Shown piece after piece: positions 12,553-35,335 of a stretch of 64,000 nucleotides of DNA. Under the pieces are notes generated by a model. The model was not told the DNA's origin. It did no database searches and saw only the letters and a list, made by a program, of their open reading frames with translations. The translations under genes were made by a program, and so were the position numbers. Numbering within the stretch: the stretch's first letter is position 1; the number at the start of each line of letters is the position of its first letter. The stretch comes from an uncultured Methanosarcinales archaeon. Its GTDB lineage: Archaea; Nanobdellota; Nanobdellia; Woesearchaeales; UBA11576. The stretch spans positions 3,099 through 67,098 of the forward strand of contig CAZLYC010000006.1 of assembly GCA_964563755.1 (NCBI GenBank). The letters run 5' to 3'.

Positions 12553-13092
12553 TTATTTCGTCAGCTCTTTCCAGTTCGCTACATAGTGAGCGTATCGCTT
12601 GTCGAATACTTCTTTTGGTGTTATCGCGATACCGAGCGAGTCAAAAGCAGTTTTTATCTCTGATAGCGCTTTATCCTTTTCTTGTTTATCTGTCTTTCGC
12701 TCTATTTCCAGTATGTTTCCGTACCCTTTGTTTGAGTCAACGCAGACAGAAAGACCTTTCCAGTCGAATGAGTATCTTTTTCTGAACCATTTTACCTTGA
12801 CAGGATAACCCAGCATAAGAAACATAGTCTCCAGCTTCTCAAAATCTTGCTTTGGGAAAATAATCTCTATCTCTTCCCTCTGTTCAGCATGCATCTTGCC
12901 TTTCTTGAGCCAGATTTTCGAGTATTCGCTGTTCTTCTGTATCCTGACATCTACTGGCGCGTCAAAGTAATACGTGACCTGTTCGTCAGGATTTGATCGG
13001 CCGCACTGTTTTGAGAAGAAGTCAATCAATCTAAAATATTCATCATCTGTCAGAAAGCTTCGGACTTCAACCTCTATTTTTTCATTTGCCAT
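12553..13092 (-). CDS. CYTH-domain protein (class IV adenylyl cyclase / triphosphatase-like)
   Basis: N-terminal EIEVEVRSFL (the ExExK-like start of CYTH), about 180 aa of charged beta-rich sequence. Confidence 0.5.
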   Translation of the reverse strand: MANEKIEVEVRSFLTDDEYFRLIDFFSKQCGRSNPDEQVTYYFDAPVDVRIQKNSEYSKIWLKKGKMHAEQREEIEIIFPKQDFEKLETMFLMLGYPVKVKWFRKRYSFDWKGLSVCVDSNKGYGNILEIERKTDKQEKDKALSEIKTAFDSLGIAITPKEVFDKRYAHYVANWKELTK

Positions 13093-15237: not shown

Positions 15238-16545
15238 ATGAAAGTGAGTTTCGATTATATTGACCTGAAGTATCTTCCTTCTCCTGATGATCTTATTGCA
15301 GAATATTACCTTGAGCCTAACAAGGGAGTTAAGTTCGAAAGGGCTGCGAATCATATTGCCGCAGAGTCAAGCATCGGGACATGGACAGACATTTCTACGC
15401 TTTCACCGATTACAGCTTCAAGGCTGAAGCCTCATGTATATGATATTAAGAAGGATTTCTGGGGCAAGAGAGGGACGATTAAGGTCGCGTACAGCCCGGA
15501 GCTTTTTGAGGCAGGAAACATGCCTGAGATACTGTCGAGCATAGCAGGTAATGTTTTCGGGATGAAGGATGTGCAGAACTTGAGGCTTAATGATATTCGT
15601 TTTCCTGAGAAGATAATGAAAAAGTTCAAGGGTCCTAAATTTGGCATTGAAGGCATAAGGAAACTTCTGAAAGTTCCAGAGAGGCCTCTTTGTGGGACAA
15701 TAATCAAGCCGAAAGTCGGTCTTGATGAGTCTATGCACGCAAAGGTCGCGTATGAGGCCTGGATGGGCGGGCTTGACATAGTGAAGGATGATGAGAATCT
15801 CAGCAGCATGTCATTCAACAATTTCCAGAAACGCGTACAGCTCACCCTAAAAGCAAGGGACAAGGCTGAGAAAGAGACAGGGGAGAAGAAGATGTACATG
15901 GCGAACATCACTTCAGAGACTGATGAGATGAAGAAGCGTGCTGATTTCATCAGGAGGAATGGCGGTGAGTATTTCATGATTGATATCCTTACAGTCGGAT
16001 GGGCAGGATTGCAGACTATGAGGAATTACGATGAGAAACTGAAGATGGTCATCCACGCCCACAGGGCGATGCATGGCGCGCTTACAAGGAACCCAAGGCA
16101 CGGAATCTCGATGCTTTCAATAGCTAAATGCGCAAGGCTGATTGGAGTGGACCAGTTGCACATAGGTACTGCAGCAGTGGGAAAGATGCACGGCTCTGCT
16201 ACAGAAGAGACTGAGATAGAGACTGAAGTCGAGACATACTGGTTCAAGCCAGGTCAAGGCAGTTCTGCGCTTGAGCAGCAATGGAACGGCATAAAGCCGG
16301 TGCTTGCTGTCGCGTCCGGAGGCCTTCATGCTGGCATGACAGAGAAACTGGTTAAGCTCATGGGAAAGAATATCGTCGCGCAGTATGGCGGCGGAGTTCA
16401 TTGGCATCCCGAAGGGACCAGGAAGGGTGCGATGGGTGTAAGACAGGCAATAGACGCCGTGAATCAGGGAGTCACGCTTGAAGAATACGCTAAGTCACAC
16501 AAGGAACTGAAAGATGCTTTGGATAAGTTCGGGATGGTTAGATGA
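15238..16545 (+). CDS. rbcL: Ribulose-1,5-bisphosphate carboxylase/oxygenase large subunit, form III (archaeal type)
   Basis: GGLDIVKDDENLSSMSF (active-site Lys region), KMVIHAHRAMHGA, GGGVHWHP motifs. 435 aa. Confidence 0.93.
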   Translation: MKVSFDYIDLKYLPSPDDLIAEYYLEPNKGVKFERAANHIAAESSIGTWTDISTLSPITASRLKPHVYDIKKDFWGKRGTIKVAYSPELFEAGNMPEILSSIAGNVFGMKDVQNLRLNDIRFPEKIMKKFKGPKFGIEGIRKLLKVPERPLCGTIIKPKVGLDESMHAKVAYEAWMGGLDIVKDDENLSSMSFNNFQKRVQLTLKARDKAEKETGEKKMYMANITSETDEMKKRADFIRRNGGEYFMIDILTVGWAGLQTMRNYDEKLKMVIHAHRAMHGALTRNPRHGISMLSIAKCARLIGVDQLHIGTAAVGKMHGSATEETEIETEVETYWFKPGQGSSALEQQWNGIKPVLAVASGGLHAGMTEKLVKLMGKNIVAQYGGGVHWHPEGTRKGAMGVRQAIDAVNQGVTLEEYAKSHKELKDALDKFGMVR

Positions 16546-19589: not shown

Positions 19590-19700
19590 ATGACAGAAAC
19601 AGGCTATTTATTATTTAAATATTGCCTCTGTATACTGTTCAATAAGCGCATATACGAACTAAACAGAAATAAAAATAATTCTCTCTTTGGCAAAAAGAAA

Positions 19701-20618
19701 ATGTTTAATAGCATGACTGCAAATGATATGGTCATGGCAGAGTTGATTGATGGAAAGCTTGTTTCTGATAAGATTCTTGAGAAAGTGAAGTCTGAAGTAG
19801 ATTCGTTGAAAAGCAGATATGGTGCTGCTCCCTCGCTTCATGCGATTATTGTCGGTGATGACCCTGCTTCTCAGACATATGTAAGGATGAAAAAGAATGC
19901 CTGCAAGAAGACAGGCATGGATTCTGAGACGCATGCTCTTCCTGCAGATATTTCACAGAGGAGTCTTGAAGCGCTCATTGGCAGGCTTAATGAGAATGAA
20001 GAGGTCAGCGGGATACTTGTCCAGCTTCCGCTCCCAAAGCATATTGATAAGAACAGCATAATGGACTCGATACATCCTGACAAAGATGTGGACGGTTTTA
20101 GTAAGACCAATGTAGCGAAGCTTTACAGGGGAGAGGATTGCCTTGAACCTTGCACGCCAAGGGGAGTGCTTGTTCTTCTGGACCATTACAAGATTCCTGT
20201 TGAAGGCAGGGAATTGGTAATAATTGGCAGGAGCGATATCGTCGGGAAACCTTTATCGATTATGCTCTCAGGAACAAGAAGGAATGCTACAGTGACTCTT
20301 TGTCATTCAAAGACGCACAATCTTCAGTATTATTCTTCATCTGCAGACATACTTATTGCTGCGATAGGCAGGCCAGAGTATGTCAAGAGTGAGATGGTGG
20401 AAAAAGGTGCTGTGGTGATTGACGTTGGGGTCAATCGTGTTGATGATATCTGCGCAGATAAAGGATATCGTCTTGTAGGAGATGTTGATTTCAATAATGT
20501 TTCAAAGAAAGCTTCTTACATAACACCTGTCCCTGGCGGGGTAGGCCCTATGACCATAGCGTGTCTGATGGAGAACACATTGAAAGCTTACAAGATTCAG
20601 AAAGGAATGCTCTCATAA
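19701..20618 (+). CDS. folD: Bifunctional methylenetetrahydrofolate dehydrogenase/cyclohydrolase
   Basis: HAIIVGDDPASQTYVRMKKNACKKTG, ILVQLPLP, CTPRGV, GRSDIVGKP, VTLCHSKT, DVGVNRV motifs. Start moved to the ATG at 19701; the 5' extension from 19590 is unlikely to be coding. Confidence 0.88.
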   Translation: MFNSMTANDMVMAELIDGKLVSDKILEKVKSEVDSLKSRYGAAPSLHAIIVGDDPASQTYVRMKKNACKKTGMDSETHALPADISQRSLEALIGRLNENEEVSGILVQLPLPKHIDKNSIMDSIHPDKDVDGFSKTNVAKLYRGEDCLEPCTPRGVLVLLDHYKIPVEGRELVIIGRSDIVGKPLSIMLSGTRRNATVTLCHSKTHNLQYYSSSADILIAAIGRPEYVKSEMVEKGAVVIDVGVNRVDDICADKGYRLVGDVDFNNVSKKASYITPVPGGVGPMTIACLMENTLKAYKIQKGMLS

Positions 20619-20841: not shown

Positions 20842-22365
20842 TTATTCCCATTCCATCGTAGCTGGTGGCTTGTTTGAGATATCATACACCACTCTATTGA
20901 CTTCAGGTATCTCGTTTGTTATTCTCGTAGACATCTTCTCAAGCAGTTCGTAAGGTACTTTAGAAAAATTTGCAGTCATTGCGTCTTTTGATTCGACAAT
21001 CCTTATTGCGACAGGGTATTTGTAGCTTCTCGCATCTCCCTGTATTCCGACACTCTTTATCGGCAAGAGCACAGCGAATCCCATCCAGACATCATTGTAA
21101 AGTCCAGCGTTCTTTAGTTCATCTTCTACTATATAACTTGCTTTTCTTGTTATCTCTGCTCTTTCTGGCGTCACTTCACCTAGTATTCTTACTCCAAGAC
21201 CAGGACCGGGAAAGACATGTCGGGTTATTATTTCATTGTCCAATCCTATGTTGCGGGCCAGCTTTCTGACTTCATCTTTGTAGAGTTCGCGTAGTGGTTC
21301 GTAAACTTCTAGTTTCATGTTATCAGGCAGCCCACCGACATTATGATGGGATTTTATCTTCGATGAGTGCTTAGTGAGACCGCTCTCTATCCTGTCAGAG
21401 TATATCGTGCCCTGCACAAGCACTTCTGCGTTTTCTTTTTGCGCAAGTTCATCGAACACATCGATGAATGTCTTGCCTATCGATTTTCTCTTGAGTTCGG
21501 GGTCTTCTACTCCCTTTAGAGCTTCAAAGAATTTGTCTCGTGCGTCAAGCACTCTTAAATCAAGAGCATATTGTGAGAATATCTTCTCTATTGTCTCTGT
21601 CTCCTTGTGTCTCATGAGTCCTGTGTCGACGTATGCGGCGACAAGCTGCTTTCCTATGACCTTGCTTAGTATTATCGCTGCTGTCGATGAGTCAACCCCG
21701 CCAGATAATCCGAGTATCGCTTTTCTTTTTCCTATCTTCTGTGCTGCCTCTTGTTCTATTATTGATATTATGTTTGTTACATCCCATTCCTTCTTTGCAT
21801 GGCAGATATTGAGTGCGAAGTTCTCAAGGATCTTGTTTCCATTCGGCGTATGTGTGACCTCAGGGTGGAATTGAACGCCGTAAAGTTTCTTTTGTTTATT
21901 TTCAAATGCTGCGATTGGTGAATCTTTTGTTGATGCTGTCGTAACATATCCTGAAGGCAGCGATTCGACTATGTCTTTGTGGTTCATCCAGACTTTTTCT
22001 ATGCTGAGAATACTATTAAGCAATTTTCCATCTAGGACTTTCAAGGATGTGACGCCATACTCTCCTGAGTCACCAGGACTGACTTTGCCTCCGCTCATCT
22101 GGGCTATGAGCTGGTGTCCGTAGCATATGCCAAGTATGGGAACAGAGATATCCAGCAGGTCTTTATCGCACTTGGGTGATTCTTTGTCATATACAGATGA
22201 TGCTCCACCTGAGAGGATGATACCTTCAAGTCCATCTATCTTCTCTAACTGTTCTTTGCTCGTCGTTGCAGGAAGCACTTCCGAGTACACTCCTATGTCT
22301 CTTATCCTCCTAGAAATCAGGTGGGCGTACTGGGAGCCGAAGTCCAGCACTATTATCCTTTCCAT
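20842..22365 (-). CDS. guaA: GMP synthase (glutamine-hydrolysing), fused GATase plus ATP-pyrophosphatase, bacterial-type single polypeptide
   Basis: GATase triad region (GICYGHQL), SGGVDSS PP-loop, C-terminal GMP synthase dimerisation domain. 507 aa. Confidence 0.9.
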   Translation of the reverse strand: MERIIVLDFGSQYAHLISRRIRDIGVYSEVLPATTSKEQLEKIDGLEGIILSGGASSVYDKESPKCDKDLLDISVPILGICYGHQLIAQMSGGKVSPGDSGEYGVTSLKVLDGKLLNSILSIEKVWMNHKDIVESLPSGYVTTASTKDSPIAAFENKQKKLYGVQFHPEVTHTPNGNKILENFALNICHAKKEWDVTNIISIIEQEAAQKIGKRKAILGLSGGVDSSTAAIILSKVIGKQLVAAYVDTGLMRHKETETIEKIFSQYALDLRVLDARDKFFEALKGVEDPELKRKSIGKTFIDVFDELAQKENAEVLVQGTIYSDRIESGLTKHSSKIKSHHNVGGLPDNMKLEVYEPLRELYKDEVRKLARNIGLDNEIITRHVFPGPGLGVRILGEVTPERAEITRKASYIVEDELKNAGLYNDVWMGFAVLLPIKSVGIQGDARSYKYPVAIRIVESKDAMTANFSKVPYELLEKMSTRITNEIPEVNRVVYDISNKPPATMEWE

Positions 22366-22633: not shown

Positions 22634-23137
22634 TTGGGTGAGACCTTGACCAGACCTGCGCTAAAGGGTAATCTGGATATTGACGACACTGTCCGCGGCT
22701 ACATATGCCCGACTTGCGGCGTATCACATGAGACATATTTCTCGCTTGATGACGGCGTGGAAGAATCTCCATCTAAACCTGTCGCAACGCTTGAGGTATG
22801 TTCAGAGCTTGAGGACAAGATAGTTTCTTGCGAAAACGGCTTCATGATGTCAAAGATGAAGCTTGTCGAACACAACATGGAAGTTTCTGATAAGGACCTT
22901 ATCATGTATCTTCCGGGAGACCATCTGTACTGCCCTGCATGCGACACAAAGCATGAAGGTGACTACATAGAGGTCAGTTATTCTAGCGACCCAGGGAAGA
23001 GCATAGTGCAATGCCCTGACGGGAGGATGATGCCTAAGGACGCATTATTGAGCCACAGCCACAGGAAACTGCTTGAGAGGATAGAGAAGAGATCCAATTC
23101 AATCATAAGGATAGGCAACGGTTACAAGAGTATCTAG
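22634..23137 (+). CDS. Hypothetical protein with two CxxC pairs (zinc-ribbon-like)
   Basis: CPTCG...C..C and CPACD...CPDG. Start codon uncertain. Confidence 0.45.
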   Translation: MGETLTRPALKGNLDIDDTVRGYICPTCGVSHETYFSLDDGVEESPSKPVATLEVCSELEDKIVSCENGFMMSKMKLVEHNMEVSDKDLIMYLPGDHLYCPACDTKHEGDYIEVSYSSDPGKSIVQCPDGRMMPKDALLSHSHRKLLERIEKRSNSIIRIGNGYKSI

Positions 23138-23150
23138 GAGGGATGTTACG

Positions 23151-23486
23151 ATGTCTGACGGGAATGAGAGGAAAAACAGGATTGAAGATTATCTGAAGAC
23201 ACTTACGCCGGAGGAAAGAGAGAGGCACAAGGAGCTTATAGAGGAATGCAGGCAAAGAGAGAAGGATATCAGGGAAAGCTATGATAATGCCCGCGAGTCA
23301 ATCAAGGAAGTGAAGAAAAATTATGAGATGATAGGTGAAAACCTCAAGAAGATGTGCGAGTTCTACGGGGAGCTTGAGAAGCTTGTCGAAGTCGCTGATA
23401 AGATGAACAAGGCGACGGACAGCTTGGAAGGAGTATATGCGGCATATTTCCTGATGAACAGGAAAGACGGCAAGAAATATTCTTAA
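23151..23486 (+). CDS. Hypothetical coiled-coil protein (111 aa)
   Basis: Charged heptad-like sequence. 14 nt after the previous ORF. Confidence 0.45.
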   Translation: MSDGNERKNRIEDYLKTLTPEERERHKELIEECRQREKDIRESYDNARESIKEVKKNYEMIGENLKKMCEFYGELEKLVEVADKMNKATDSLEGVYAAYFLMNRKDGKKYS

Positions 23487-23527: not shown

Positions 23528-24760
23528 TCATTTCTGTTTTGGTTCTCCTATGTAGCAAGCATTCTTATCTGGTTTCTTGTATCTTCCTCTTGCCTGCTCC
23601 CTGAACTTGACCATTGCTGAATATACCTGGTTGACATAGTTGACTGTCTCACCTATGAAGGGTATGCCATGAGTCCCATTGTTGCCTGCATTCTGCAGCG
23701 CAGTCGGGCTTGCATTGTACCCTGCTGCTGCAATCCTGAAGTCTCCATTGTATTTTTTCAGCAGGTCTGCATGATGATGCACAGCAGCGTCAATAGTCAT
23801 TATCACAGATAATCTCTCGTCAACTTCTGAGAGATATTGGTCTAGCAGTATCTGTTTCTCGCGCTCTTTCTGTTCTTTTGTCTTAATCTGCATCTTCGTC
23901 GCTCTTGCTACCCTCTCTTCATATGCCTGTCTCTGCTCTATCTCGCGTATCCTCTGCGGAACCTGTTTTGATGCGAGGTCTATGTAATTTGTATATTCCG
24001 CATGTGCTGCGTTGAGGTTTCTTTCGAAAACCTCTGCCTCTGCTATGAGGTAGAAGTATTTTTCTATGTCTGCTGAATTAGATGATATGAAATTTCTTAC
24101 ATCATCTCTTATTTTGTCAGGTGTCGAATCCTGGCCTATCATCCTCTCAAGCTTTGAGAGCAGTGTGCCTCTTATCTCTGACGATGCTTTCCATTTGTCC
24201 CTCGCCTTCCAGAGGTTCTGCCTGCCTATTTTCCAGCTGTAAGGCTCGTTCGTCCTAAGACCATATCTCTGTCCTGTAGATTCTATGAACTGTGCATCGC
24301 CTAAAGCTCCGGCAGGTGAGACTATGACTTTGCCGAATCTTGATTCCTGCCATATTATTGCTAGTGTGAACATCGGGTCGACCGGCCATATCTCAGCATA
24401 TCTCTCGACAGATTCGAGTATGTAAGGGAAGTATTTTCTTGCATCCGGGTTTGACCTTAGGAACTGCTCAAAATCATAGCTGCTCTCTGTGCAGAGTGAT
24501 TCTTTCAGTTTGCTCTGTGCATCGTCTGCCCTGCTCTCGCATTCAATTATGTCTACTGAGTGCCTATTCACTTGATCGTCCAGGCAAGATATATTATGTT
24601 TCAATGAAGCGTTCTCCTGCGTAAGCATCTCTATCTCTTGTGCGTGCCGCTTCAAGAGTTCCTGCCTGTCTTTGAACAAATCAGAATTCAAAATACTATG
24701 AGTTCCGATGGCTGCTGCGCTTATTCCTGCTACGATGATTGCTTTTTTGATTATATTCAT
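23528..24760 (-). CDS. Secreted or membrane-anchored lytic transglycosylase (SLT domain) protein
   Basis: N-terminal hydrophobic segment. SLT catalytic region IIWQESRF...SPAGALGDAQFIESTG (E-S...AGAxG.MQ pattern), and a C-terminal ...AAAGYNASP... segment whose assignment to the SLT fold is uncertain. Confidence 0.72.
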   Translation of the reverse strand: MNIIKKAIIVAGISAAAIGTHSILNSDLFKDRQELLKRHAQEIEMLTQENASLKHNISCLDDQVNRHSVDIIECESRADDAQSKLKESLCTESSYDFEQFLRSNPDARKYFPYILESVERYAEIWPVDPMFTLAIIWQESRFGKVIVSPAGALGDAQFIESTGQRYGLRTNEPYSWKIGRQNLWKARDKWKASSEIRGTLLSKLERMIGQDSTPDKIRDDVRNFISSNSADIEKYFYLIAEAEVFERNLNAAHAEYTNYIDLASKQVPQRIREIEQRQAYEERVARATKMQIKTKEQKEREKQILLDQYLSEVDERLSVIMTIDAAVHHHADLLKKYNGDFRIAAAGYNASPTALQNAGNNGTHGIPFIGETVNYVNQVYSAMVKFREQARGRYKKPDKNACYIGEPKQK

Positions 24761-24913
24761 TTCAACACCGATTTTATATCAACACTATGTTAGAACAAGC
24801 TGAAGAGGCTTGCCTTCCCTCTGTTTTTTCTGCGTTAAAAAAATGCTCTGCGCAGAATTATAAATGTTTCGGTCAGGCAAAGATTTAAATATATTCAATA
24901 AGACCTTAAGCCC

Positions 24914-25795
24914 ATGAAAAAAGAAGTTGATGCTGCTGTCATGAAGATGATGCTGTCTGCAGAGGAGAGTGAGATAACAGAGCATAACATATACAGGAAG
25001 CTTTCTGAGTCTATAAAAGACACGCACAACAGCAAGGTACTGAAAAGCATATCTGATGATGAGTTCAGGCATTACAATTTCTGGAAATCGATGACAGGTG
25101 TCGATGTCCCGCAGAGCAAGTTAAGATTCTGGAAGTATTATCTTATATCCAAGGTTTTTGGAATTACATTCGGAACAAAGCTGATGGAACGTGGAGAAGG
25201 CGCTGCACAGCAGAAGTATGACAAGCTTGCCGAGCATGTGCCTCATGCGAAGCAGATAGAGGCTGATGAGAAGAAGCATGAGAAGCTGCTGCTGGATATG
25301 CTTGACGAGGAGAAATTAAAGTATGTCGGTTCTATTGTCCTCGGCCTTAACGATGCTCTTGTTGAACTTACTGGCGCTTTGGCTGGTTTCACTCTTGCTT
25401 TCAAGAATTCGAACATAATAGCTATTGCTGGATTGATAACAGGCATCGCAGCTTCATTCTCGATGGGCGCTTCAGAGTATCTCTCGACAAAATCAGAGAA
25501 AGGTGATGGTAAGAACCCTTTCAAGGCATCCATATATACAACTCTCGCTTACATTCTGACCGTGTTTTTCCTTGTGTTTCCATTTATGATTATGAGTAAC
25601 CCTCTTATTGCGCTTGCGATAACTTTGGTCAATGTCATGATTGTAATCACAACGTTCACTTTCTACATATCTGTCGCTCAGGACATAAGTTTCAGGTCGA
25701 GATTCACTGAGATGACCCTGATAAGTCTGGGTGTTGCAGCATTCTCTTTCGGAGTGGGATTCATTATTAGAACAGTCTGGGGAATAGAGATATAG
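24914..25795 (+). CDS. Erythrin-VIT1 iron transporter (MbfA-like: N-terminal ferritin-like domain plus VIT1/CCC1 membrane domain)
   Basis: N-terminal rubrerythrin-like helices with E..H pairs. C-terminal GLNDALVELTGALAGFT motif and TM helices of the VIT1 family. Confidence 0.72.
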   Translation: MKKEVDAAVMKMMLSAEESEITEHNIYRKLSESIKDTHNSKVLKSISDDEFRHYNFWKSMTGVDVPQSKLRFWKYYLISKVFGITFGTKLMERGEGAAQQKYDKLAEHVPHAKQIEADEKKHEKLLLDMLDEEKLKYVGSIVLGLNDALVELTGALAGFTLAFKNSNIIAIAGLITGIAASFSMGASEYLSTKSEKGDGKNPFKASIYTTLAYILTVFFLVFPFMIMSNPLIALAITLVNVMIVITTFTFYISVAQDISFRSRFTEMTLISLGVAAFSFGVGFIIRTVWGIEI

Positions 25796-25813
25796 TTCAT
25801 TCTAAATAAATAA

Positions 25814-25916
25814 GCAGTTCTGCAGCCGCCTAGCGAGCGTCATACAATTATTTTATTTGAATTGCAGTTCTGCAACCGAAAACAGTTATATGATTAATGC
25901 GAGCGCGGCTGCAACA
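25814..25916. repeat. GC-rich palindromic repeat element, type B variant
   Basis: GCAGTTCTGCAGCCGCCTAGCGAGCG...ATTTTATTTGAATTGCAGTTCTGCAACCGAA...GCGAGCGCGGCTGCAAC. Shares the core with 20619, 48212 and 61496. Confidence 0.6.
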
Positions 25917-25940
25917 GTATAGAAGCACATTAAAAAAAGT

Positions 25941-27050
25941 TTATTCTTTAAGCACCAGTTCCACAATCGCTTCTGTGTGCGGAGTCTGGGGAAAAAGGTC
26001 AAACATTGCTGCGCTCTTTAGCTGATATTCCTTGAATTTTGGTATGTCTTTTCCAAGCTGCTGGATATTGCATGATATATATAGTATTACTTTAGGCTTG
26101 AGCATCTTTAACTCAAGTATGGTCTTCGGGTGCATGCCTGATCTCGGCGGGTCTGTTATTACGAAGAGCGGTTCTGGAAGTTCAAGTTTTTTCAGCTGCA
26201 TCGCGTCAAGAAGCACGGCCTTTGTGTTTGTCGCATTGTTCATTTTTATATTCTCATTTGCTGCATCTATGCATTGCTTCACGCTCTCAACCGTCGTTAC
26301 TCCTTTAAAAAGCGGCGAATTGTTTATCCCAAAAGTGCCTATCCCGCCATAAAGGTCAAGTAGGTGCGAATTCTTCGTGTCATACTTCTTGAGCAGTTCA
26401 TTGCAGTAACTGTGCATCGTTTCAGCCATCTCGTGGTTGTTCTGTGAGAATCCCTGCACAGAATAGATAAAATTGTTACCAAGATAGCTCTCTTTCAGCA
26501 TGTCTTTTCCCTTGACTACAAAGAAATCATCGGATACGCTGATGTCTGTTATTGACGGCGCATAAGTGACGATTATATTATTAGCAGTGGTTTCTTTCGC
26601 GAACTTCTTTATCTTCTCTATCGCTTCACCGACTCTTGTTGAGTCGCTGTTGAGAACAAACGAGATTGATGAATCATTCTGGGGTGTCCGTATGACAGCA
26701 TATCTAAACGTGCCTGATTTCCTGCTCACATCGAAATAATCAGGCTCCCTGAAGAATTCCCTAACCTCTTTCATAAGGATATTTAGCTTCTCATTCGATA
26801 TTGCGCACGAATCAACAGTCACTGTCTCTTTCCAGTCGCCTTTCTTGCGGAGACCGACCCCGTTCTTTGAGAAGACAAAGTCCATCCTGTTCCTGTAGCC
26901 ATACTCATTAGCAGAGAATACTTCGATGTCATCCTGTCCTATCAGTGCTGCAAGAAGTTTTTTCTTGTGATCGAGCTGCGCAGGATAGTCTATGTGCTGG
27001 GTTGAGCAGCCGCCGCATCTTCCAAAGTAAGGGCATCTTGGTGTCGCCAT
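25941..27050 (-). CDS. RNA (uracil-5-)-methyltransferase, TrmA/RumA family (TRAM plus class I SAM MTase)
   Basis: N-terminal Cys cluster CPYFGRCGGC, SAM-binding DLYGGIGTF, C-terminal catalytic DPPRSG. Start set at MATPRC. Confidence 0.8.
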   Translation of the reverse strand: MATPRCPYFGRCGGCSTQHIDYPAQLDHKKKLLAALIGQDDIEVFSANEYGYRNRMDFVFSKNGVGLRKKGDWKETVTVDSCAISNEKLNILMKEVREFFREPDYFDVSRKSGTFRYAVIRTPQNDSSISFVLNSDSTRVGEAIEKIKKFAKETTANNIIVTYAPSITDISVSDDFFVVKGKDMLKESYLGNNFIYSVQGFSQNNHEMAETMHSYCNELLKKYDTKNSHLLDLYGGIGTFGINNSPLFKGVTTVESVKQCIDAANENIKMNNATNTKAVLLDAMQLKKLELPEPLFVITDPPRSGMHPKTILELKMLKPKVILYISCNIQQLGKDIPKFKEYQLKSAAMFDLFPQTPHTEAIVELVLKE

Positions 27051-27106
27051 GTATATTCCAATAGTTGGCGAAAGATTAAAATATCTTCCTAACAGAAGAG
27101 TCAATC

Positions 27107-27583
27107 ATGGAGCATTCAATCAAAGTGGGCTTCAGTTTTGGGCTTACCTCAGGCATCATAACTACTCTTGGCCTCATGGTCGGCCTTAATTCAGGCACAC
27201 ACTCGAGAATTGCAGTCATAGGAGGCATACTCACTATCGCGATAGCTGATGCGTTCTCTGATGCTCTTGGCATCCACGTGTCTGAAGAGGCGGAGAATGT
27301 TCACACCCAGAAGCAGGTGTGGAAGTCTACTGTTTCAACTTTTGTCACAAAGTTCATCATCGCATTGACTTTTCTTGTGCCTGTTCTTTTGCTCGACCTT
27401 TCTGCAGCAGTAATTGCAGCTGTATGCTGGGGTCTTCTTGCTCTCGGTTTTTTCAGCTACAGGATGGCGAGGGAGCAAAAAGAGAAGCCGATGAAGATAA
27501 TAGGCGAGCACATCGCAATAGCGATACTTGTGGTTATAGCAACTCATGCTGTCGGAAAAGCCATATCTTTGGTTTTAGGCTGA
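27107..27583 (+). CDS. VIT1/CCC1-family small membrane protein
   Basis: GLMVGL...IADAFSDALG motifs and TM helices. A second VIT-family gene flanks the MTase. Confidence 0.55.
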   Translation: MEHSIKVGFSFGLTSGIITTLGLMVGLNSGTHSRIAVIGGILTIAIADAFSDALGIHVSEEAENVHTQKQVWKSTVSTFVTKFIIALTFLVPVLLLDLSAAVIAAVCWGLLALGFFSYRMAREQKEKPMKIIGEHIAIAILVVIATHAVGKAISLVLG

Positions 27584-27685
27584 TTCATCTTCTTTATAAC
27601 CTCTGACCTGGTCAGCATTATGGCTTTAAACCGTCGCTTATGACCACCACAACCTTTATATACACCTTATTTTTTCAAAAGGAAC

Positions 27686-28123
27686 ATGGGAAAGAAATCT
27701 AATGGTATCAAATCAGGCGCAAAATGCGAAAAAAGGCGTCTTCAGTCTAGATGGAATAATAAATGGTTCGTAAGAAGGATTATGGACCTTAAAAGGAAGT
27801 CAGACCCGCTTTTGGGCTCATCCCAGGCCAAGGGCATCGTTCTGGAGAAGGTTCAGCTCGAAGCAAAGCAGCCAAACTCAGCTATGAGGAAGTGCGCTCG
27901 CGTCCAGCTAATCAAGAACGGAAGGCAGGTCACAGCATTCATGCCAGGTGACGGCGCGCAGAAGCTTATCGACGAGCACGACGAAGTACTGATTGAGTGC
28001 ATCGGCGGAAAGATGGGCCGATCCAAGGGAGATATTCCTGGAGTCAGATGGCAGGTCATAAAAGTTAATGATCAATCATTAAGAGCGCTTCTCTCTAAAA
28101 AAATTGAGAAGGCAAGGAAGTAA
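27686..28123 (+). CDS. rps12: 30S ribosomal protein S12 (uS12)
   Basis: [28 protein letters not shown]...KVNDQSL. Archaeal S12. Confidence 0.93.
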
Positions 28124-28127
28124 AAAA

Positions 28128-28727
28128 ATGGCAATTCTAGCGTTCAACAGATGGAGCACAGACGGGATAACTGTCCAGGATCCAGGACTCAAGGCTTACA
28201 TGAACCTCAATCCGAGGATTGTGCCAAAATCATCTGGAAGGAACGCAAAATTCAGGTTCTACAAGTCAGCTAACATGTTTGTCATTGAGAGACTTATGAA
28301 CAGGCTCATGAATTCAGGCCACAAGGCTAAGAAGCACCTGATAACATCATACTCTCACACAGGTAAAGGCAATACTTCATTCAATATAATGGAAGATACC
28401 CTGAAGATGATTGAACAGAGGACAAAGCAGAACCCTATAGCTGTCGCGGTAAAAGCGATTGAGAATGCGGCGCCTAGGGAAGAGATATTGACAATAGAGT
28501 ATGGCGGAGCCAAGTATCCTAAGGCAGTCGAGATGTCTCCTCAGAGGCGTGTCGATTATGCATTGAAGCTGATAATACAGACTGCGAAGCAGAAGTCTTT
28601 CAATTCTAAGAAAGGCATAACTGCTGCCCTTGCAGAGGAGCTCGTCGCAGCTTTCCAGAATTCAAATATGTCAGGCGCAATAGCGAAGAAGCTTGAGCTT
28701 GAGAGACAGGCAGACAGTTCACGATAA
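28128..28727 (+). CDS. rps7: 30S ribosomal protein S7 (uS7)
   Basis: Immediately follows S12. IVPKSSGRNAKFRF...ERLMNRLM...NPIAVAVKAIENAAPREE. Start at MAILAF. Confidence 0.9.
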   Translation: MAILAFNRWSTDGITVQDPGLKAYMNLNPRIVPKSSGRNAKFRFYKSANMFVIERLMNRLMNSGHKAKKHLITSYSHTGKGNTSFNIMEDTLKMIEQRTKQNPIAVAVKAIENAAPREEILTIEYGGAKYPKAVEMSPQRRVDYALKLIIQTAKQKSFNSKKGITAALAEELVAAFQNSNMSGAIAKKLELERQADSSR

Positions 28728-31766: not shown

Positions 31767-32618
31767 TCAAAAGAAATTCTGGAATAGCCTCGTCGTCACA
31801 CAGACTTCCAGCACTGCTGCCAATAATACAAGAGCTATAGCGATAAGCATCAGGAGCGTCGCGTCTTTAAAGACATTCTTGAACGCTTTTGATCCTTTTT
31901 TCTCATGCATTATTGCCTTTGACACCACTCCTCCTGCTATCGCTGCGAGCATGAACCCGCTTATCTCTGGAAGGAGGTGTATCAGGAAGAAACCGAACGC
32001 CTGGAAGCCCTGCATAAGATTCTGCGTCAAAGTATTTATGGCGAATACTATGAAGTTGGCGAACACGCTCGCATTGAGTATTATGAGGAATATTGCGCTT
32101 GCGCCATAGAAAAAAGAAAGGACGAAACATATCATGAGTACAAGTAGTCCGTGCGCAAAAAGCCCGAGTATCTGCGAGAATGTCGGCTGTATGCTCTCAT
32201 CGACGAACGCTTTCACAGCATCCTGCGTCACTCCTTGGTCAAGGTTGAGAAATGTCATCTGGAACTCAAAAGCATCGTTGTATAGCGGCTGGTTCGTGTA
32301 TAGAAGAAGCCCGACAAAGACGAATGCGACAAAGACTCCTAGGAATGAGAACATGTACACTTCATATATGTCCTTGTGATTGCTGAAGAAGTTCTTAAGC
32401 CCGAACCTGACCTCTATCTTCTCTTCCATGCGGAGCAGCATTATCAGCGTCGGGGTAAGCAGCAGTGTTGTCAGGAACACTACAGATACTGACATGCTAT
32501 CCTTGAAGAAGAATAAGGATAGTAGGAATGCTACAAAAGTAAAGAAAAATCCAAAAATAAAGGCAAGGTAAGGCCTGTGCCTTACCTTTGCCGGATTAAA
32601 AAGGTCTTCTAAAACCAT
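31767..32618 (-). CDS. SpoIIM/DUF95-like integral membrane protein
   Basis: Six TM helices with a pattern (ILNASVFANFIVFAINTL...GFFLIHLLPEISGFMLAAIAGG) reminiscent of the stage II sporulation protein M family. Confidence 0.45.
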   Translation of the reverse strand: MVLEDLFNPAKVRHRPYLAFIFGFFFTFVAFLLSLFFFKDSMSVSVVFLTTLLLTPTLIMLLRMEEKIEVRFGLKNFFSNHKDIYEVYMFSFLGVFVAFVFVGLLLYTNQPLYNDAFEFQMTFLNLDQGVTQDAVKAFVDESIQPTFSQILGLFAHGLLVLMICFVLSFFYGASAIFLIILNASVFANFIVFAINTLTQNLMQGFQAFGFFLIHLLPEISGFMLAAIAGGVVSKAIMHEKKGSKAFKNVFKDATLLMLIAIALVLLAAVLEVCVTTRLFQNFF

Positions 32619-32629
32619 TGTTTAAATTA

Positions 32630-35335
32630 TTAGAATCTGTCTCTCCTGTTCGCTCTGTCCTTCAGGTAAGACTCGAGTCCCATGCCATCACTGCTCCTGC
32701 TTCCTAAAAAGTCTATTGCGGCAGGTCTCTTTCTCTTGTCGCCCTTGCTCCAGCCATACTTGTAAAGCGTTCCCATGACAAGTGCCATGAGCAGCATAGC
32801 TATTATGAGCGTCGACCAGTTTATGCTGAGTGCACTCATGAAGCCAGAGGCCTTTCCAATGCCTGCTGCATGTCCTTCGTCTTCACCAGACGTGACAGCC
32901 TGCTGTTCTTCTGACTCTGGTAATGGCTGTCTAGCCGCAGATACTGTGTCTGTTCCTGTAGCTGTATCATCCTGTGTCTCCTCCGTTTTTTCCGTTTTTT
33001 CAGTGCATGATCTCGTGTCTGTCTTCTTTGCGTCACTGCTGCAGTCGTTTATGTCGACGCATGTCCTTGCCTGTTTACCGTCAGAGCATGTTGTCCATGC
33101 TGTGCAGCTCCAATCAGCTGTGCAGCTTCCTGCAGAAGTTGTCGTTGAGCTGGTTCCTCCATGCCCTCCGTGTCCTCCCTGGACTCCGCTCTGCTGTGTC
33201 GCTACCGCAAGCGCCTCTGTGCTGCTGTAGGTCTTGCCGTTAGCCAAGCTAGTTACTGAAGCTAATATGCTATATGCACCTTGCTCCGCTGGCGCGTTGA
33301 ATGCGTGCGTGTATTTTCCGTCGTCAGCGATTGCTACATCCGTGGTCACATTGCCCGGCAAGAGCAATGATATGCTCTCTTCAGGGACGAGTGACCCGTT
33401 GTCATAGATGACAAGGCCTGATGCTGTGACTGCTGCTCCTGGTGTCGCCGATGTCGGGTTGAGGTCAAGAGCCACTATGTACTTGTAAGTCACTTCTATC
33501 TGGTCTTGTGCTTCATTAGAATTGTTCAATGTGTCAACTGCCTGCACCTTTAGGGTGTATGTTCCAGTTGCTGTGTTCGGCGTAGTCTCGACTGATGCTG
33601 TGTACGTGTCGCCCAATTTCTCTAGGGAGATGGGTTGGGTAGTATCGTCAGGAGCGACTAGCTCCGCATTTACCGTCTCAACTCCGCTGATGTCAGTCAC
33701 ATCGAGGCTTAGCTGTAATGTATCGCCTCTTGCGAATGTATCAGGGTTTTCCATCTGTATGTCTGGGCCTGTCAAGTCAACAACAGATATCGTTCTCTCG
33801 TCGCTTGTTCCTGCGTTTCCCGCATCGTCGACACATTGAACCTTCCACCTATGCGCTCCTAGCGCGACTATCTTCTGCCATTCTGTCTCACTGTTTCCCT
33901 GCGACAATTGCTGTTCCTGTCCAATATCGTCTATGTATACATTGCAATCCATCTCGTTGTCGTAGTTGTCCTGCACCATATACCTGAAGCTGACATGCAC
34001 GTCGCTTGTTGCTGCGTCTTCTGGCGCTACGAGCTCTACTGTCGGCGGGGTTCTGTCCACAATGATTCGATAGGTCTGCTCAGCCTTGTTGCGGACTGAA
34101 TCCTCAGCCATCACAGTGAATTCGCTCGGTCCTTCCGGCCATTCTGACACGTCTATGCCAAAGATGCTTTCCACTTCTGTCTTGTTGCCGTCAATTACAA
34201 GCCAAACCTTGTGCAGTTGGTAGTTGTCTGTGACTTCAACCTGAAGTGCTGTCGTCGACGCTATGATGGTGTCATTCTCTGCATTCTTCAGCTGTATGCT
34301 TGGAGGCGTCTTGTCCAATGTATAGCCCCAAGTCCCGCTGCTGCCTTCGAGGCCTGCAGCGTCTGTGCATCTCATCTTCCACTCATGTTGTCCTTCTGCG
34401 ACGTCAGCGCTCGGTATGAACACTACGTCCATGTGCGGTGCTGCTATGTCTTCCATGTACTCTGTGCCATCTATGTCCATATCACAAGTCATCTCTGGTG
34501 CTAAGTTGTCTGCTGCAAAGAAACTGAAATTCTTTGCGAGGCCGATTATGGCCCCATCCACTGGGGATACTAGAGTTACGCTTGGTGGAACGCCATCTAT
34601 GGTTATTGTGCCGCTGTACTCTGATTCCTCTCCGCCGTTGTTGTATGCGGAGAAGTCGAAGCATACCTGCTGCTCGTTGTCATAGCTGGAGAGGTCTATC
34701 TCTCGTCCATACAGCCCATTTGACTGGGCGAGCTGCAATGTATGGTCCTGCGGTGTTATATTCTCGTCGTAATTGCATCTTACATAATGGAAAGTCACAT
34801 TCTGTATTCCTGTCTCAGGGTCTGTTGCATTTACGCTTACAAGGTATTCAGAATCTCCTTCCTTAACGAATCCTCCATCGACAGGATGAGTATCCTGTAG
34901 CGAAGGGGCTGTGTTGTCATTAAGGATGTCGAACGGGAACGTGTATGTATGAGTCTGTGAATCTGGGTCTGTCATGGTCACGAGGACTTCTTTATGGGTG
35001 TCTGCATCGACAAGGTCTGCTTTTCCGAGGAATTCGAATGATGACAGGATGACGTTTGTCGCTATGCTGCCTTCTTTCCATTCTGCTATGCTTCCTGCGA
35101 ATGATTCAGACCAGCCCTTGTAATCTACAAGTGCAAGTATGCTGAATCCTGCAGGGCTTGCCTGGACCATCTTGACTTCATAGCTTCCCCTAAAGTTGCT
35201 TATGTTGAGTTCGAAGCTTACATGGTTGGTCTCATATGCCTGCGCTGGTGCGAGTGTGACTGTTGTCTCGCCCGCGACAAATATAGAATTGAGTAAAACC
35301 ATTAAAACAAATATTACGCTTACACCTCTTTTCAT
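32630..35335 (-). CDS. Giant cell-surface protein (901 aa) with a C-terminal transmembrane anchor. S-layer or adhesin-like
   Basis: Signal peptide, many beta-rich Ig-like segments, Cys-rich module (SCTADWSCTAWTTCSDGKQARTCVDINDCSS), acidic linker, C-terminal TM helix and basic tail. Confidence 0.7.
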   Translation of the reverse strand: MKRGVSVIFVLMVLLNSIFVAGETTVTLAPAQAYETNHVSFELNISNFRGSYEVKMVQASPAGFSILALVDYKGWSESFAGSIAEWKEGSIATNVILSSFEFLGKADLVDADTHKEVLVTMTDPDSQTHTYTFPFDILNDNTAPSLQDTHPVDGGFVKEGDSEYLVSVNATDPETGIQNVTFHYVRCNYDENITPQDHTLQLAQSNGLYGREIDLSSYDNEQQVCFDFSAYNNGGEESEYSGTITIDGVPPSVTLVSPVDGAIIGLAKNFSFFAADNLAPEMTCDMDIDGTEYMEDIAAPHMDVVFIPSADVAEGQHEWKMRCTDAAGLEGSSGTWGYTLDKTPPSIQLKNAENDTIIASTTALQVEVTDNYQLHKVWLVIDGNKTEVESIFGIDVSEWPEGPSEFTVMAEDSVRNKAEQTYRIIVDRTPPTVELVAPEDAATSDVHVSFRYMVQDNYDNEMDCNVYIDDIGQEQQLSQGNSETEWQKIVALGAHRWKVQCVDDAGNAGTSDERTISVVDLTGPDIQMENPDTFARGDTLQLSLDVTDISGVETVNAELVAPDDTTQPISLEKLGDTYTASVETTPNTATGTYTLKVQAVDTLNNSNEAQDQIEVTYKYIVALDLNPTSATPGAAVTASGLVIYDNGSLVPEESISLLLPGNVTTDVAIADDGKYTHAFNAPAEQGAYSILASVTSLANGKTYSSTEALAVATQQSGVQGGHGGHGGTSSTTTSAGSCTADWSCTAWTTCSDGKQARTCVDINDCSSDAKKTDTRSCTEKTEKTEETQDDTATGTDTVSAARQPLPESEEQQAVTSGEDEGHAAGIGKASGFMSALSINWSTLIIAMLLMALVMGTLYKYGWSKGDKRKRPAAIDFLGSRSSDGMGLESYLKDRANRRDRF

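What the first reader, a model, noticed from the sequence alone, without database searches (positions are those of the whole stretch)
23528..24760. SLT-domain lytic transglycosylase encoded in an archaeal context
The 410-aa protein has an N-terminal hydrophobic anchor or signal, a coiled-coil segment, and a clear soluble-lytic-transglycosylase catalytic core (WQESRF...AGALGDAQFIESTG). Archaea lack murein, so a peptidoglycan-cleaving enzyme implies either activity against bacterial cell walls (predation, symbiosis or competition, as proposed for some small-genome archaea) or a repurposed function. The gene is likely bacterial in origin.
Basis: partly seen in the sequence, partly recalled or inferred. 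Interest (0 to 1): 0.55.

Follow-up and report, generated by a model that had tools for sequence, protein, structure and literature searches.

The report
Split lytic transglycosylase in a Woesearchaeote
A small-genome archaeon (Woesearchaeota) stably carries and maintains a membrane-anchored enzyme of the type that cuts bacterial cell walls. This kind of gene has been reported in these archaea before, but this copy belongs to a tiny, undescribed family whose catalytic domain is interrupted by a 138-residue helical insert.

Summary

With the insert spliced out, the SLT match becomes one continuous stretch.

The contig is truly archaeal (Woesearchaeota): split RpoB'', PolB, an intron-bearing tRNA, and native composition for this gene. 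The gene lies in a block (S7-S12-VIT1-TrmA ... SLT ... FolD) that is collinear in other Woesearchaeota assemblies. It is under purifying selection (dN/dS about 0.14), yet it is the fastest-evolving gene of that block.

The tight family is tiny: 9 representatives among 1.84 billion clusters. It is shared only with Myxococcota, Bdellovibrionales and "Deltaproteobacteria" MAGs, where the gene sits beside PBP1C or an Amidase_3. The transfer is ancient and its direction is unresolved.

SLT proteins in Woesearchaeota and Pacearchaeota, read as anti-bacterial or episymbiosis enzymes, have been published since 2013-2015, so the headline is not new. Only the split, small, anchored architecture is. Activity and substrate remain untested.

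The parts
24683..24760 (-). Residues 1-26: N-terminal hydrophobic segment (MNIIKKAIIVAGISAAAIGTHSILNS). It is a signal-anchor or Sec signal peptide. K5-K6 precede the hydrophobic core, which suggests N-in/C-out topology.
   Evidence: Highest hydropathy in the protein. Every family member has a hydrophobic N-terminus. AF2 predicts helix 4-24 at low pLDDT. Cleavage versus anchoring was not testable here.
24485..24682 (-). Residues 27-92: long alpha-helical stalk or coiled coil. About 63 residues, roughly 9 nm if fully extended (inference).
   Evidence: AF2 predicts a single helix 27-89, with pLDDT 72-84 over residues 31-70. There are weak coiled-coil-type Pfam hits: KLRAQ, Tropomyosin, DivIC. 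The sequence is poorly conserved (11-30% identity). The four archaeal members share a 7-residue (one heptad) segment that all bacterial members lack.
24236..24484 (-). Residues 93-175: conserved pre-domain (YD..F.....P.A.KYFPY) plus the N-terminal half of the SLT domain. It contains catalytic Glu139 (codon 24344-24346), Ser140, and the motif II equivalent G154-D-A-Q157.
   Evidence: Pfam SLT stretch 119-172 maps to profile positions 4-57. E139, S148, A152, G154, Q157 and T162 are invariant in 19 diverse sequences. This is the most conserved segment, at 63-67% identity to all relatives.
23822..24235 (-). Residues 176-313: a 138-residue, highly charged, all-helical insert that interrupts the SLT domain. 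It has no known domain. W176, R180, A186, R197 and Y256 are invariant within the tight family, and Y256 is invariant across all 19 sequences.
   Evidence: Splicing it out turns two SLT stretches into one continuous match (profile 4-107/117, 61.1 bits). It also gives a gapless alignment to the T7 gp16 LT domain (E 5.8e-9, versus 0.098 unspliced). AF2 predicts helices 174-207, 214-227, 229-265, 267-288 and 295-313 at pLDDT 81-92. The insert alone has no significant Pfam hit. Relative P0011 carries a LysM domain at this same insertion site.
23585..23821 (-). Residues 314-392: C-terminal half of the SLT domain. It carries D314-x-R316-L-S, G339-D, the motif III equivalent Y348-N349-A-S, G365-I-P367, and E-T-x-N-Y375-V-N.
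   Evidence: Aligns to the second halves of MltD-like 8rhe and T7 gp16. D314, R316, G339, Y348 and I366 are invariant. Identity to relatives is 46-51%.
23528..23584 (-). Residues 393-410 plus the stop codon: basic, low-confidence C-terminal tail. Relatives carry a CC/C motif here; the window protein has a single Cys402.
   Evidence: pLDDT below 50 for residues 394-410.
24761..24913 (.). 153-bp divergent intergenic region between the SLT gene and the VIT1-rubrerythrin gene. It presumably holds both promoters. A GGTG Shine-Dalgarno-like element lies at 24766-24769, and A/T-rich TATA-like stretches are present.
   Evidence: Read directly from the sequence. No functional test was done. The same divergent VIT1/SLT arrangement occurs in L015 and L016.
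24914..28727 (.). Context: the conserved archaeal block flanking the gene. It comprises VIT1-rubrerythrin (24914-25795 +), TrmA-like methyltransferase (25941-27104 -), small VIT1 (27107-27583 +), S12 (27686-28123 +) and S7 (28104-28727 +). FolD lies on the other side at 19590-20618.
   Evidence: The block is collinear with Woesearchaeota loci L007 and L008. Neighbours are 52-84% identical, whereas SLT is 33-38%. The VIT1-Rbr, SLT, RuBisCO and CYTH genes are shared with L015.

Best explanation
This is a native, vertically inherited Woesearchaeota gene for a membrane-tethered, outward-facing family-1 (GH23/SLT) lytic transglycosylase.

Shown: the fold, the intact catalytic Glu139 and core motifs, the split-domain architecture, archaeal residence, purifying selection, and the peptidoglycan-related context of the bacterial homologs.

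Inferred mechanism: the N-terminal hydrophobic segment holds the protein in the archaeal membrane, N-in. The helix of about 63 residues acts as a stalk that projects the catalytic domain outward. Glu139 acts as the single acid/base that cleaves the MurNAc-beta-1,4-GlcNAc bond of bacterial peptidoglycan, forming 1,6-anhydro-MurNAc. The 138-residue helical insert, which emerges from the loop between the motif II helix and the D-x-R-L-S helix, is a family-specific accessory module. It probably serves substrate or partner binding, or gating of activity: a relative carries a LysM at the same site, and one Tyr in the insert is invariant.

Because the archaeon is not expected to make murein, the likeliest role is local opening or digestion of the wall of a bacterial partner or prey at the cell-cell contact, or of wall debris. 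The rapid divergence of the non-catalytic parts fits a surface protein that tracks its partners.
For: - **Catalytic residues.** E139, G154, Q157, Y348 and others are invariant across 19 divergent sequences.
- **Archaeal residence.** Archaeal markers flank the gene. Composition is native. An independent assembly is identical across both junctions. Synteny holds in L007, L008 and L015.
- **Selection.** dN/dS is about 0.14 between two Woesearchaeota orthologs, and the catalytic halves are the most conserved segments.
- **Peptidoglycan link.** Bacterial family members lie directly after PBP1C (L013) or two genes upstream of an Amidase_3 (L002). P0011 carries a peptidoglycan-binding LysM inside the insert site.
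- **Export.** The N-terminal anchor is conserved, and distant relatives carry Tat-like RRxF motifs.
- **Literature.** The same interpretation has been proposed for other SLT proteins of Woesearchaeota and Pacearchaeota (PMC8204110, PMC9723730, PMC10936187). Archaeal peptidoglycan hydrolases of other families have been shown to kill bacteria (PMC12352652).
Against: - No activity, substrate or localisation data exist for this family or for any DPANN SLT protein.
- No recognised wall-binding domain is present.
- A membrane-tethered enzyme would have to pass the outer membrane of a diderm partner to reach its murein.
- Nothing else in the 64-kb window points to peptidoglycan use or host attack: there are no recycling genes and no pore-forming toxin.
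- The AF2 model is only moderate (mean pLDDT 72.7; 58-66 around residues 141-170).
- Signal peptide versus anchor is undetermined.
- Whether this Woesearchaeote truly lacks any murein-like polymer cannot be judged from 64 kb.
Confidence: 0.55

Rival explanations
1. The enzyme is real and exported, but its job is nutritional scavenging. It digests free peptidoglycan or wall debris (necromass) in sediment or water to release sugars and amino sugars, rather than breaching a living partner.
For: The catalytic evidence is the same as for the best explanation. Woesearchaeota are described as fermentative recyclers of cell compounds (PMC9723730). No toxin, adhesin operon or secretion machine is linked to the gene.
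Against: The enzyme is tethered by an anchor rather than released, and no anhydro-MurNAc or MurNAc catabolic genes lie nearby. The window is only part of the genome, so this absence is weak evidence.
Confidence: 0.2
2. The domain has been repurposed. It acts on a non-murein glycan (chitin, chito-oligosaccharides, an exopolysaccharide, or the archaeon's own surface glycans), or it works as a hydrolytic lysozyme or chitinase rather than a lytic transglycosylase.
Against: The same protein family in bacteria sits beside PBP1C and a MurNAc-L-Ala amidase. A relative has a LysM in the insert. The best sequence and structure matches are true lytic transglycosylases. The archaeal and bacterial catalytic halves are 63-67% identical, which argues against a change of substrate.
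Confidence: 0.15
3. The gene is not archaeal: it reflects bacterial contamination, mis-binning or a chimeric assembly.
For: Sources label several close homologs as Myxococcota or Deltaproteobacteria. SLT domains are overwhelmingly bacterial.
Against: The gene lies mid-window between archaeal markers on the same contig. Its GC, GC3, codon usage and tetranucleotide profile match the neighbours. A second assembly is 100% identical across both junctions. Three further archaeal contigs from other samples carry the ortholog in the same gene neighbourhood. The bacterial homologs are only 33-42% identical and have 57-72% GC, against 44% here.
Confidence: 0.02
4. The gene is a remnant of a virus or mobile element, for example a virion-associated or conjugation-associated lytic transglycosylase like T7 gp16 or VirB1.
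For: The best PDB sequence match is the T7 gp16 LT domain. PHROGs hits include internal virion and lytic tail proteins.
Against: The hits cover only the generic catalytic motif region. The neighbours are housekeeping genes with no integrase, capsid or secretion genes. The locus is syntenic across divergent Woesearchaeota, and composition is native.
Confidence: 0.03

Closest known systems
Family-1 bacterial lytic transglycosylases (catalytic domains of E. coli Slt70, MltC, MltE/EmtA and P. aeruginosa Slt and MltF; Pfam PF01464, CAZy GH23)
   Different: The domain is interrupted by a 138-aa helical insert that none of these structures has. No NCBIfam subfamily cutoff is reached: 25.9 against 234, 22.1 against 508, and 16.2 against 375 bits. 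There is no lipobox, LysM, superhelical U-domain or ABC-type domain. The N-terminal anchor plus long stalk is also different, and the host is an archaeon.
[quoted passage not shown] 2021 fam00969, PMC8204110; AR20 in Castelle 2015; GH23 genes in Vigneron et al. 2022, PMC9723730)
   Same: It has the same catalytic domain type, occurs in the same archaeal lineages, and would have the same proposed role: binding or degrading the walls of bacterial partners.
   Different: Those are described as large proteins of up to about 3,000 aa. This one is 410 aa, membrane-anchored, and has a split SLT domain. It belongs to a tight family of about ten sequences shared with Myxococcota-like bacteria.
N-terminal lytic transglycosylase domain of phage T7 gp16 (PDB 7eyb, 6yt5)
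   Same: It is the best sequence match in the PDB once the insert is removed: 86 residues gapless, E 5.8e-9, sharing (Q/T)ESRF, G..QF..T and DxRL.P...A.
   Different: gp16 is a 1,318-aa internal virion protein. It has no insert, anchor or stalk, and the genomic context here is not viral.
Modular archaeal peptidoglycan hydrolases shown to kill bacteria (Strock et al. 2025, PMC12352652; GH25 of Aciduliprofundum, Metcalf 2014)
   Same: All are archaeon-encoded enzymes that target a polymer the producer lacks, and this class is noted to be prominent in Nanoarchaeota.
   Different: Those were defined by a catalytic domain plus a Pfam wall-binding domain (M23, GH25 and others) and are often on plasmids or small contigs. 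This protein has no recognised binding domain, is chromosomal and syntenic, and is a glycan-strand cleaver.
Coiled-coil-bearing cell-wall hydrolases and regulators such as PcsB and EnvC (analogy recalled from memory, not tested)
   Same: Each combines a long helical or coiled-coil element with a wall-cleaving module at the membrane. Helical elements can gate the active site.
   Different: The catalytic folds are unrelated (CHAP, LytM). No FtsEX partner is seen near the gene. The resemblance is architectural only.

Membership tests
Pfam SLT (PF01464) / CAZy GH23 / family-1 lytic transglycosylases | Significant match to the SLT profile above the curated threshold | tested here: met
   52.1 bits against a cutoff of 21.3, E 5.7e-14. 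With the insert removed: 61.1 bits, profile positions 4-107 of 117.
Pfam SLT (PF01464) / CAZy GH23 / family-1 lytic transglycosylases | Catalytic Glu followed by Ser/Thr (motif I, E-S) | tested here: met
   E139-S140 in WQESRF. E139 is invariant in 19 sequences, and position 140 is S or T. It aligns with the TESRF of T7 gp16.
Pfam SLT (PF01464) / CAZy GH23 / family-1 lytic transglycosylases | Motif II G-L-M-Q, motif III A-Y-N-x-G, motif IV Y...V (motif definitions recalled from Blackburn and Clarke, from memory) | tested here: inconclusive
   The G and Q of motif II are kept (G154, Q157) but the motif reads G-D-A-Q. Motif III reads G-Y-N-A-S, with Y348 and N349 conserved. Motif IV reads N-Y375-V-N-Q-V. 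The core positions are kept and the flanking ones deviate.
Pfam SLT (PF01464) / CAZy GH23 / family-1 lytic transglycosylases | Lysozyme-like alpha-helical fold with a substrate groove | tested here: met
Pfam SLT (PF01464) / CAZy GH23 / family-1 lytic transglycosylases | Contiguous catalytic domain of about 120-150 residues | tested here: not met
   A 138-residue insert (176-313) splits the domain between profile positions 57 and 58.
Pfam SLT (PF01464) / CAZy GH23 / family-1 lytic transglycosylases | Non-hydrolytic cleavage of MurNAc-GlcNAc yielding 1,6-anhydro-MurNAc | not testable with these tools
   This needs enzyme assays with muropeptide LC-MS.
Named bacterial LT subfamilies (MltC, MltD, MltE, MltF, Slt70, Borrelia BB0259) | Score above the NCBIfam equivalog or exception cutoffs, plus the characteristic accessory domains | tested here: not met
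   BB0259 25.9 against 234 bits, MltD 22.1 against 508, MltC 16.2 against 375. Pfam finds no LysM, lipobox or accessory domains.
DPANN large extracellular murein-like LT-domain proteins (fam00969, PMC8204110) | SLT domain in a Woesearchaeota or Pacearchaeota genome | tested here: met
DPANN large extracellular murein-like LT-domain proteins (fam00969, PMC8204110) | Very large multi-domain extracellular protein (up to about 3,000 aa) | tested here: not met
   The protein is 410 aa with a single (split) domain. A family HMM found no paralog in the window.
DPANN large extracellular murein-like LT-domain proteins (fam00969, PMC8204110) | Sequence clustering with fam00969 members | not tested
Modular archaeal peptidoglycan hydrolases (Strock et al. 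2025) | [quoted passage not shown] | tested here: not met
   Only SLT is found and no binding domain. The definition is read from the paper.
Phage virion-associated LTs (T7 gp16-like) | LT domain at the N-terminus of a large internal virion protein, in a viral genome | tested here: not met
   The similarity is limited to the catalytic motifs. The neighbourhood is housekeeping and syntenic.

The most novel reading that the evidence does not exclude
The anchored, stalked SLT lineage with a helical insert may be a DPANN invention that was later exported to bacteria. Three observations point that way. More distant proteins with the same body plan are DPANN-encoded. The two archaeal clades branch basally when rooted on those distant proteins. 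All bacterial members share a one-heptad deletion in the stalk relative to the archaeal and DPANN sequences.

If that is right, a wall-cleaving enzyme first tuned in archaea for use against bacteria was then picked up by Myxococcota and Bdellovibrionota-type (predatory-lineage) bacteria. The insert would act as a contact-dependent gate or partner-recognition module.
Probability: 0.15. Interest if true: 0.6.

Novelty: new variant of a known kind. Interest (0 to 1): 0.35.

Why it matters
Whether Woesearchaeota live on bacteria, and how, is still inferred only from genes like this one. This copy is a tractable test case. It is small (410 aa) and has a single domain with a clear catalytic residue. 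It is chromosomal, syntenic and under purifying selection in several lineages, so it is not a passing acquisition. A zymogram or muropeptide assay of the ectodomain, with E139Q and insert-deletion controls, would say directly whether a DPANN archaeon makes an active murein-cleaving enzyme and what the insert does.

The tiny cross-domain distribution (Woesearchaeota plus Myxococcota and Bdellovibrionales MAGs) also gives a concrete ancient inter-domain transfer to date and to polarise. The general idea is already in the literature, so the gain is incremental rather than conceptual.

Tried and rejected
2. **afdb50 fold library.** It was unavailable.
3. **AF2 of the spliced catalytic domain.** Run as a single sequence, it gave pLDDT 42, so it is unusable and was not searched.
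4. **Taxonomy of the nearest second-tier relatives.** Looking up P0018-P0025, P0028 and P0049 through cluster names returned no organism names. The deep root of the insert-bearing lineage therefore stays open.
5. **Phylogeny.** A neighbour-joining tree with 200 bootstraps leaves the archaeal/bacterial branching unresolved (support values of 56, 11 and 7). No maximum-likelihood software was available.
6. **Composition as a clue to direction of transfer.** Every copy matches its own genome, so this is uninformative.
7. **Peptidoglycan synthesis or recycling genes, toxins, and a second SLT in the window.** None were found.
8. **Viral origin.** PHROGs gave only generic catalytic-motif hits.
9. **The two small ORFs downstream of the gene, on the opposite strand (22634-23137 and 23151-23486).** They have no informative domains and are not conserved in related loci. 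I judged them unrelated.
10. **Literature search for a described coiled-coil or insert-bearing SLT in Myxococcus.** Nothing relevant turned up.
11. **Pseudomurein as substrate.** I consider this unlikely on chemical grounds, from general knowledge and untested here. Its N-acetyltalosaminuronic acid has no C6 hydroxyl for 1,6-anhydro ring formation, and its linkage is beta-1,3.
Full report
**1.
Pfam SLT (PF01464) matches at E 5.7e-14 and 52.1 bits, against a gathering cutoff of 21.3. The quoted strings sit at residues 137-142 (WQESRF) and 150-163 (AGALGDAQFIESTG).

The N-terminus, MNIIKKAIIVAGISAAAIGTHSILNS, is the most hydrophobic stretch of the protein and is preceded by two lysines. Pfam gives it only weak coiled-coil-type hits.

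**2.
Pfam reports the SLT match in two stretches. The best one (residues 119-172) covers only profile positions 4-57 of 117. In PDB sequence searches, residues 105-175 and 314-358 align to consecutive, adjacent parts of an MltD-like protein and of the T7 gp16 transglycosylase domain.

I tested this directly by deleting residues 176-313 in silico.
- The SLT match becomes a single stretch over profile positions 4-107 and rises to 61.1 bits.
- The T7 gp16 alignment becomes gapless over 86 residues, and E improves from 0.098 to 5.8e-9.

The 138-residue insert is highly charged (26 K/R, 23 D/E). It is predicted as five helices at pLDDT 81-92 and matches no known domain.

**3. The catalytic machinery is conserved.**
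I aligned 19 sequences spanning the tight family and distant relatives. E139, S148, A152, G154, Q157, T162, D314, R316, G339, Y348 and I366 are invariant, and so is one tyrosine inside the insert, Y256. Motif II reads G-D-A-Q instead of the canonical G-L-M-Q, and motif III reads G-Y-N-A-S. The key positions are retained and the flanking ones deviate.

No curated LT subfamily model comes near its cutoff (BB0259 25.9 against 234, MltD 22.1 against 508, MltC 16.2 against 375). The protein is therefore an SLT-domain enzyme but not a member of any named subfamily.

**4. The gene is archaeal, native and old.**
The window carries several archaeal markers:
- a split RpoB'' (1656-3197);
- family-B DNA polymerase (62798-63976);
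- Rad50;
- an S7e-type S7;
- form III-like RuBisCO.

It also has a tRNA with a roughly 57-nt intron in the anticodon loop (10496-10624). RpoB'' is 85-92% identical to many proteins that sources name Candidatus Woesearchaeota or Nanoarchaeota.

The SLT gene looks native. Its GC (0.444) and GC3 (0.472) match its neighbours, its synonymous-codon fit is among the best in the window, and its tetranucleotide distance from the window mean is at the 54th percentile. An independent Logan assembly of 2,169 bp is 100% identical across the gene and both junctions.

Most tellingly, the ortholog lies in the same neighbourhood in other archaeal contigs. In two Woesearchaeota MAGs (L007, L008) the order [338-aa protein]-S7-S12-VIT1-TrmA-like ... 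SLT ... FolD is collinear with the window. In L015 and L016 the same divergent VIT1-rubrerythrin gene abuts the SLT gene, and L015 also has RuBisCO and a CYTH protein nearby. Contamination or chimerism is effectively excluded.

**5. Selection.**
Within that block the neighbours are 52-84% identical to the window's proteins, while SLT is only 33-41% identical. The divergence is concentrated in the non-catalytic parts:

| Segment | Identity to relatives |
|---|---|
| Anchor | 0-35% |
| Stalk | 11-30% |
| Insert | 23-28% |
| SLT N-terminal half | 63-67% |
| SLT C-terminal half | 46-51% |

For the closest archaeal pair (L007 and L008, 73% amino-acid identity), dN/dS is about 0.14. dS is near saturation at 1.28, so the figure is approximate. 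The enzyme is therefore maintained in archaea, while its non-catalytic parts evolve fast. That pattern is expected for a surface protein that interacts with changing partners, but this last step is inference.

**6. Family and distribution.**
A word-indexed search of 5.8 billion proteins found only about ten full-length relatives. An exhaustive profile search of 1.84 billion cluster representatives found 9 at E<=1e-30, fragments included, against 8,812 generic SLT hits at E<=1e-3.

Four members are archaeal: the window, P0002, P0005 and P0008. Most of the others are bacterial, from MAGs named Myxococcota, Deltaproteobacteria or Bdellovibrionales, in unmistakably bacterial contexts:
- PilZ proteins and response regulators (L002-L005);
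- a sigma-70 domain protein (L006);
- an Amidase_3 two genes downstream of the SLT gene (L002-L005);
- a PBP1C immediately upstream (L013).

P0004 and P0006 sit on short contigs and are unplaced; P0004 has a bacterial-type (VasI/PDZ) neighbour. The link to murein-synthesis and murein-cleavage genes supports peptidoglycan as the family's substrate.

Every copy has the GC content of its own genome: 57-72% in bacteria and 45-47% in the other archaeal loci, against 44% in the window. The inter-domain transfer is therefore ancient.

A bootstrapped NJ tree gives 100% support for the family and for each archaeal pair (window + P0002; P0005 + P0008), but only 56% and 11% at the nodes that would decide direction.

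More distant relatives (E 1e-28 to 1e-14) share the plan of anchor or Tat-like signal, coil, 'YD..F' box, SLT N-terminal half, helical insert of variable length, and SLT C-terminal half. Of these, P0046 is named a DPANN archaeon, and P0040 sits next to a fused PriS-PriL primase and an archaeal ribosomal-protein operon. P0011 has a LysM domain inserted at the very same site. All bacterial members lack a 7-residue (one heptad) stalk segment that is present in the four archaeal members and three DPANN outgroups. This is a weak hint that the bacterial set is the derived one.

**7. Most likely mechanism.**
The following are shown:
- an intact GH23/SLT catalytic core;
- an N-terminal export or anchor segment;
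- a long helix;
- a conserved, structured insert;
- long-term maintenance of the gene in a Woesearchaeota lineage;
- a murein-related context in the bacterial relatives.

The rest is inferred. The protein is held in the archaeal membrane N-in. The stalk of about 63 residues (about 9 nm if extended) presents the catalytic domain outside the cell. Glu139 cleaves the MurNAc-GlcNAc bond with 1,6-anhydro ring formation. The insert serves binding or gating. Because the producer is not expected to make murein, the target would be a bacterial partner, prey or wall debris.

I put about 0.9 on 'active-site-competent SLT-fold enzyme' and about 0.95 on 'native archaeal gene'. I put about 0.6 on 'substrate is bacterial peptidoglycan' and about 0.55 on the whole chain as stated.

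Points against the full chain:
- there is no binding domain;
- a diderm partner's outer membrane would be a barrier to a tethered enzyme;
- the window holds no peptidoglycan-recycling or toxin genes;
- GH23 contains chitinases and lysozymes;
- there are no experimental data.

**8. Comparison with what is known.**
SLT or GH23 genes in DPANN archaea are an established observation. They were first noted in a few genomes (Rinke 2013; Castelle 2015, AR20). They were then described as a family of large proteins, up to about 3,000 aa, widespread in Woesearchaeota and Pacearchaeota and proposed to bind or degrade bacterial walls (PMC8204110). They were reported again as 'large lytic murein transglycosylase' in putatively predatory Woesearchaeota (PMC9723730) and in ODZ DPANN MAGs (PMC10936187).

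Archaeal peptidoglycan hydrolases of other families have been shown experimentally to kill bacteria. That census required a Pfam wall-binding domain and would not have counted this protein (PMC12352652).

The present gene differs from the described DPANN proteins in four ways: its small size, its anchor-plus-stalk, its split domain, and its tiny cross-domain family. I found no paper describing such an insert-bearing SLT.

**9. Verdict.**
What is new is modest: an undescribed architectural variant (split SLT with a conserved 138-aa helical insert), good evidence for long vertical maintenance under purifying selection in Woesearchaeota, and an ancient exchange with Myxococcota/Bdellovibrionota-like bacteria of unresolved direction. 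Interest is about 0.35, and the class is a new variant of a known kind.

Noticed in passing
window 10496-10624 (-): A tRNA gene with a roughly 57-nt insertion in the anticodon loop, i.e. an archaeal-type intron. Rfam finds it (54 bits), but ARAGORN did not report it in the mode used.
   Followed up: partly
window 15238-16545 (+), 12553-13092 (-): RuBisCO large subunit (435 aa) with a CYTH-domain protein nearby. It is 80% identical to the RuBisCO on L015, and the CYTH protein is 61% identical to its L015 counterpart. This is probably the form III nucleotide-salvage type reported for DPANN. The form was not determined here.
   Followed up: no
window 20842-22365 (-): A single 507-aa GMP synthase ORF. 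Its sequence shows the amidotransferase and ATP-pyrophosphatase parts fused, as in bacteria, rather than as two separate genes. No domain scan was run.
   Followed up: no
window 32630-35335 (-), 35846-38374 (+), 49375-50214 (-): Large proteins with Ig-like, PKD or cadherin-like repeats (901, 842 and 279 aa). They are candidate surface adhesins of the archaeon. They could be relevant to partner attachment but are not linked to the SLT gene.
   Followed up: no
window 39755-42724 (+): A 989-aa protein with a central PP2C/SpoIIE-type phosphatase domain and long unannotated flanks.
   Followed up: no
window 22634-23137 (+) and 23151-23486 (+): Two small ORFs convergent with the SLT gene. One is a 167-aa protein with two CPxC...H pairs (zinc-ribbon-like). 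The other is a 111-aa charged helical protein with a weak hit to phrog_4068. Neither is found in the related loci L007, L008 or L015.
   Followed up: partly
L007 11367-13829 (-), L008 9147-11594 (-): In the two other Woesearchaeota MAGs, an 815-820-aa protein with no Pfam domain lies tail-to-tail 5-20 bp from the SLT gene. The window has no detectable homolog, and GuaA plus the two small ORFs occupy that side instead.
   Followed up: partly
proteins P0011, P0019, P0040, P0046, P0102 (second-tier relatives); loci L017, L018: A wider set of 260-400-aa SLT proteins has a helical insert of variable length at the same site. Some have Tat-like RRxF(L/I) signals. One (P0011) has a LysM inside the insert. 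At least two are encoded by DPANN archaea, and P0040 lies next to a fused PriS-PriL primase.
   Followed up: partly
alignment A1 columns 94-100 (window residues about 52-58): A seven-residue (one heptad) segment of the stalk is present in all four archaeal members and in the DPANN outgroups P0040, P0046 and P0049. It is absent from every bacterial member, which makes it a possible shared derived deletion of the bacterial clade.
   Followed up: partly
window 24914-25795 (+) and 27107-27583 (+): Two VIT1/CCC1-type iron-transporter genes flank the locus. The first is fused to a rubrerythrin or ferritin-like N-terminal domain. Both are conserved next to the SLT gene in related archaea.
   Followed up: no
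window 31767-32618 (-): A SpoIIM-family membrane protein (283 aa) in an archaeal genome.
   Followed up: no
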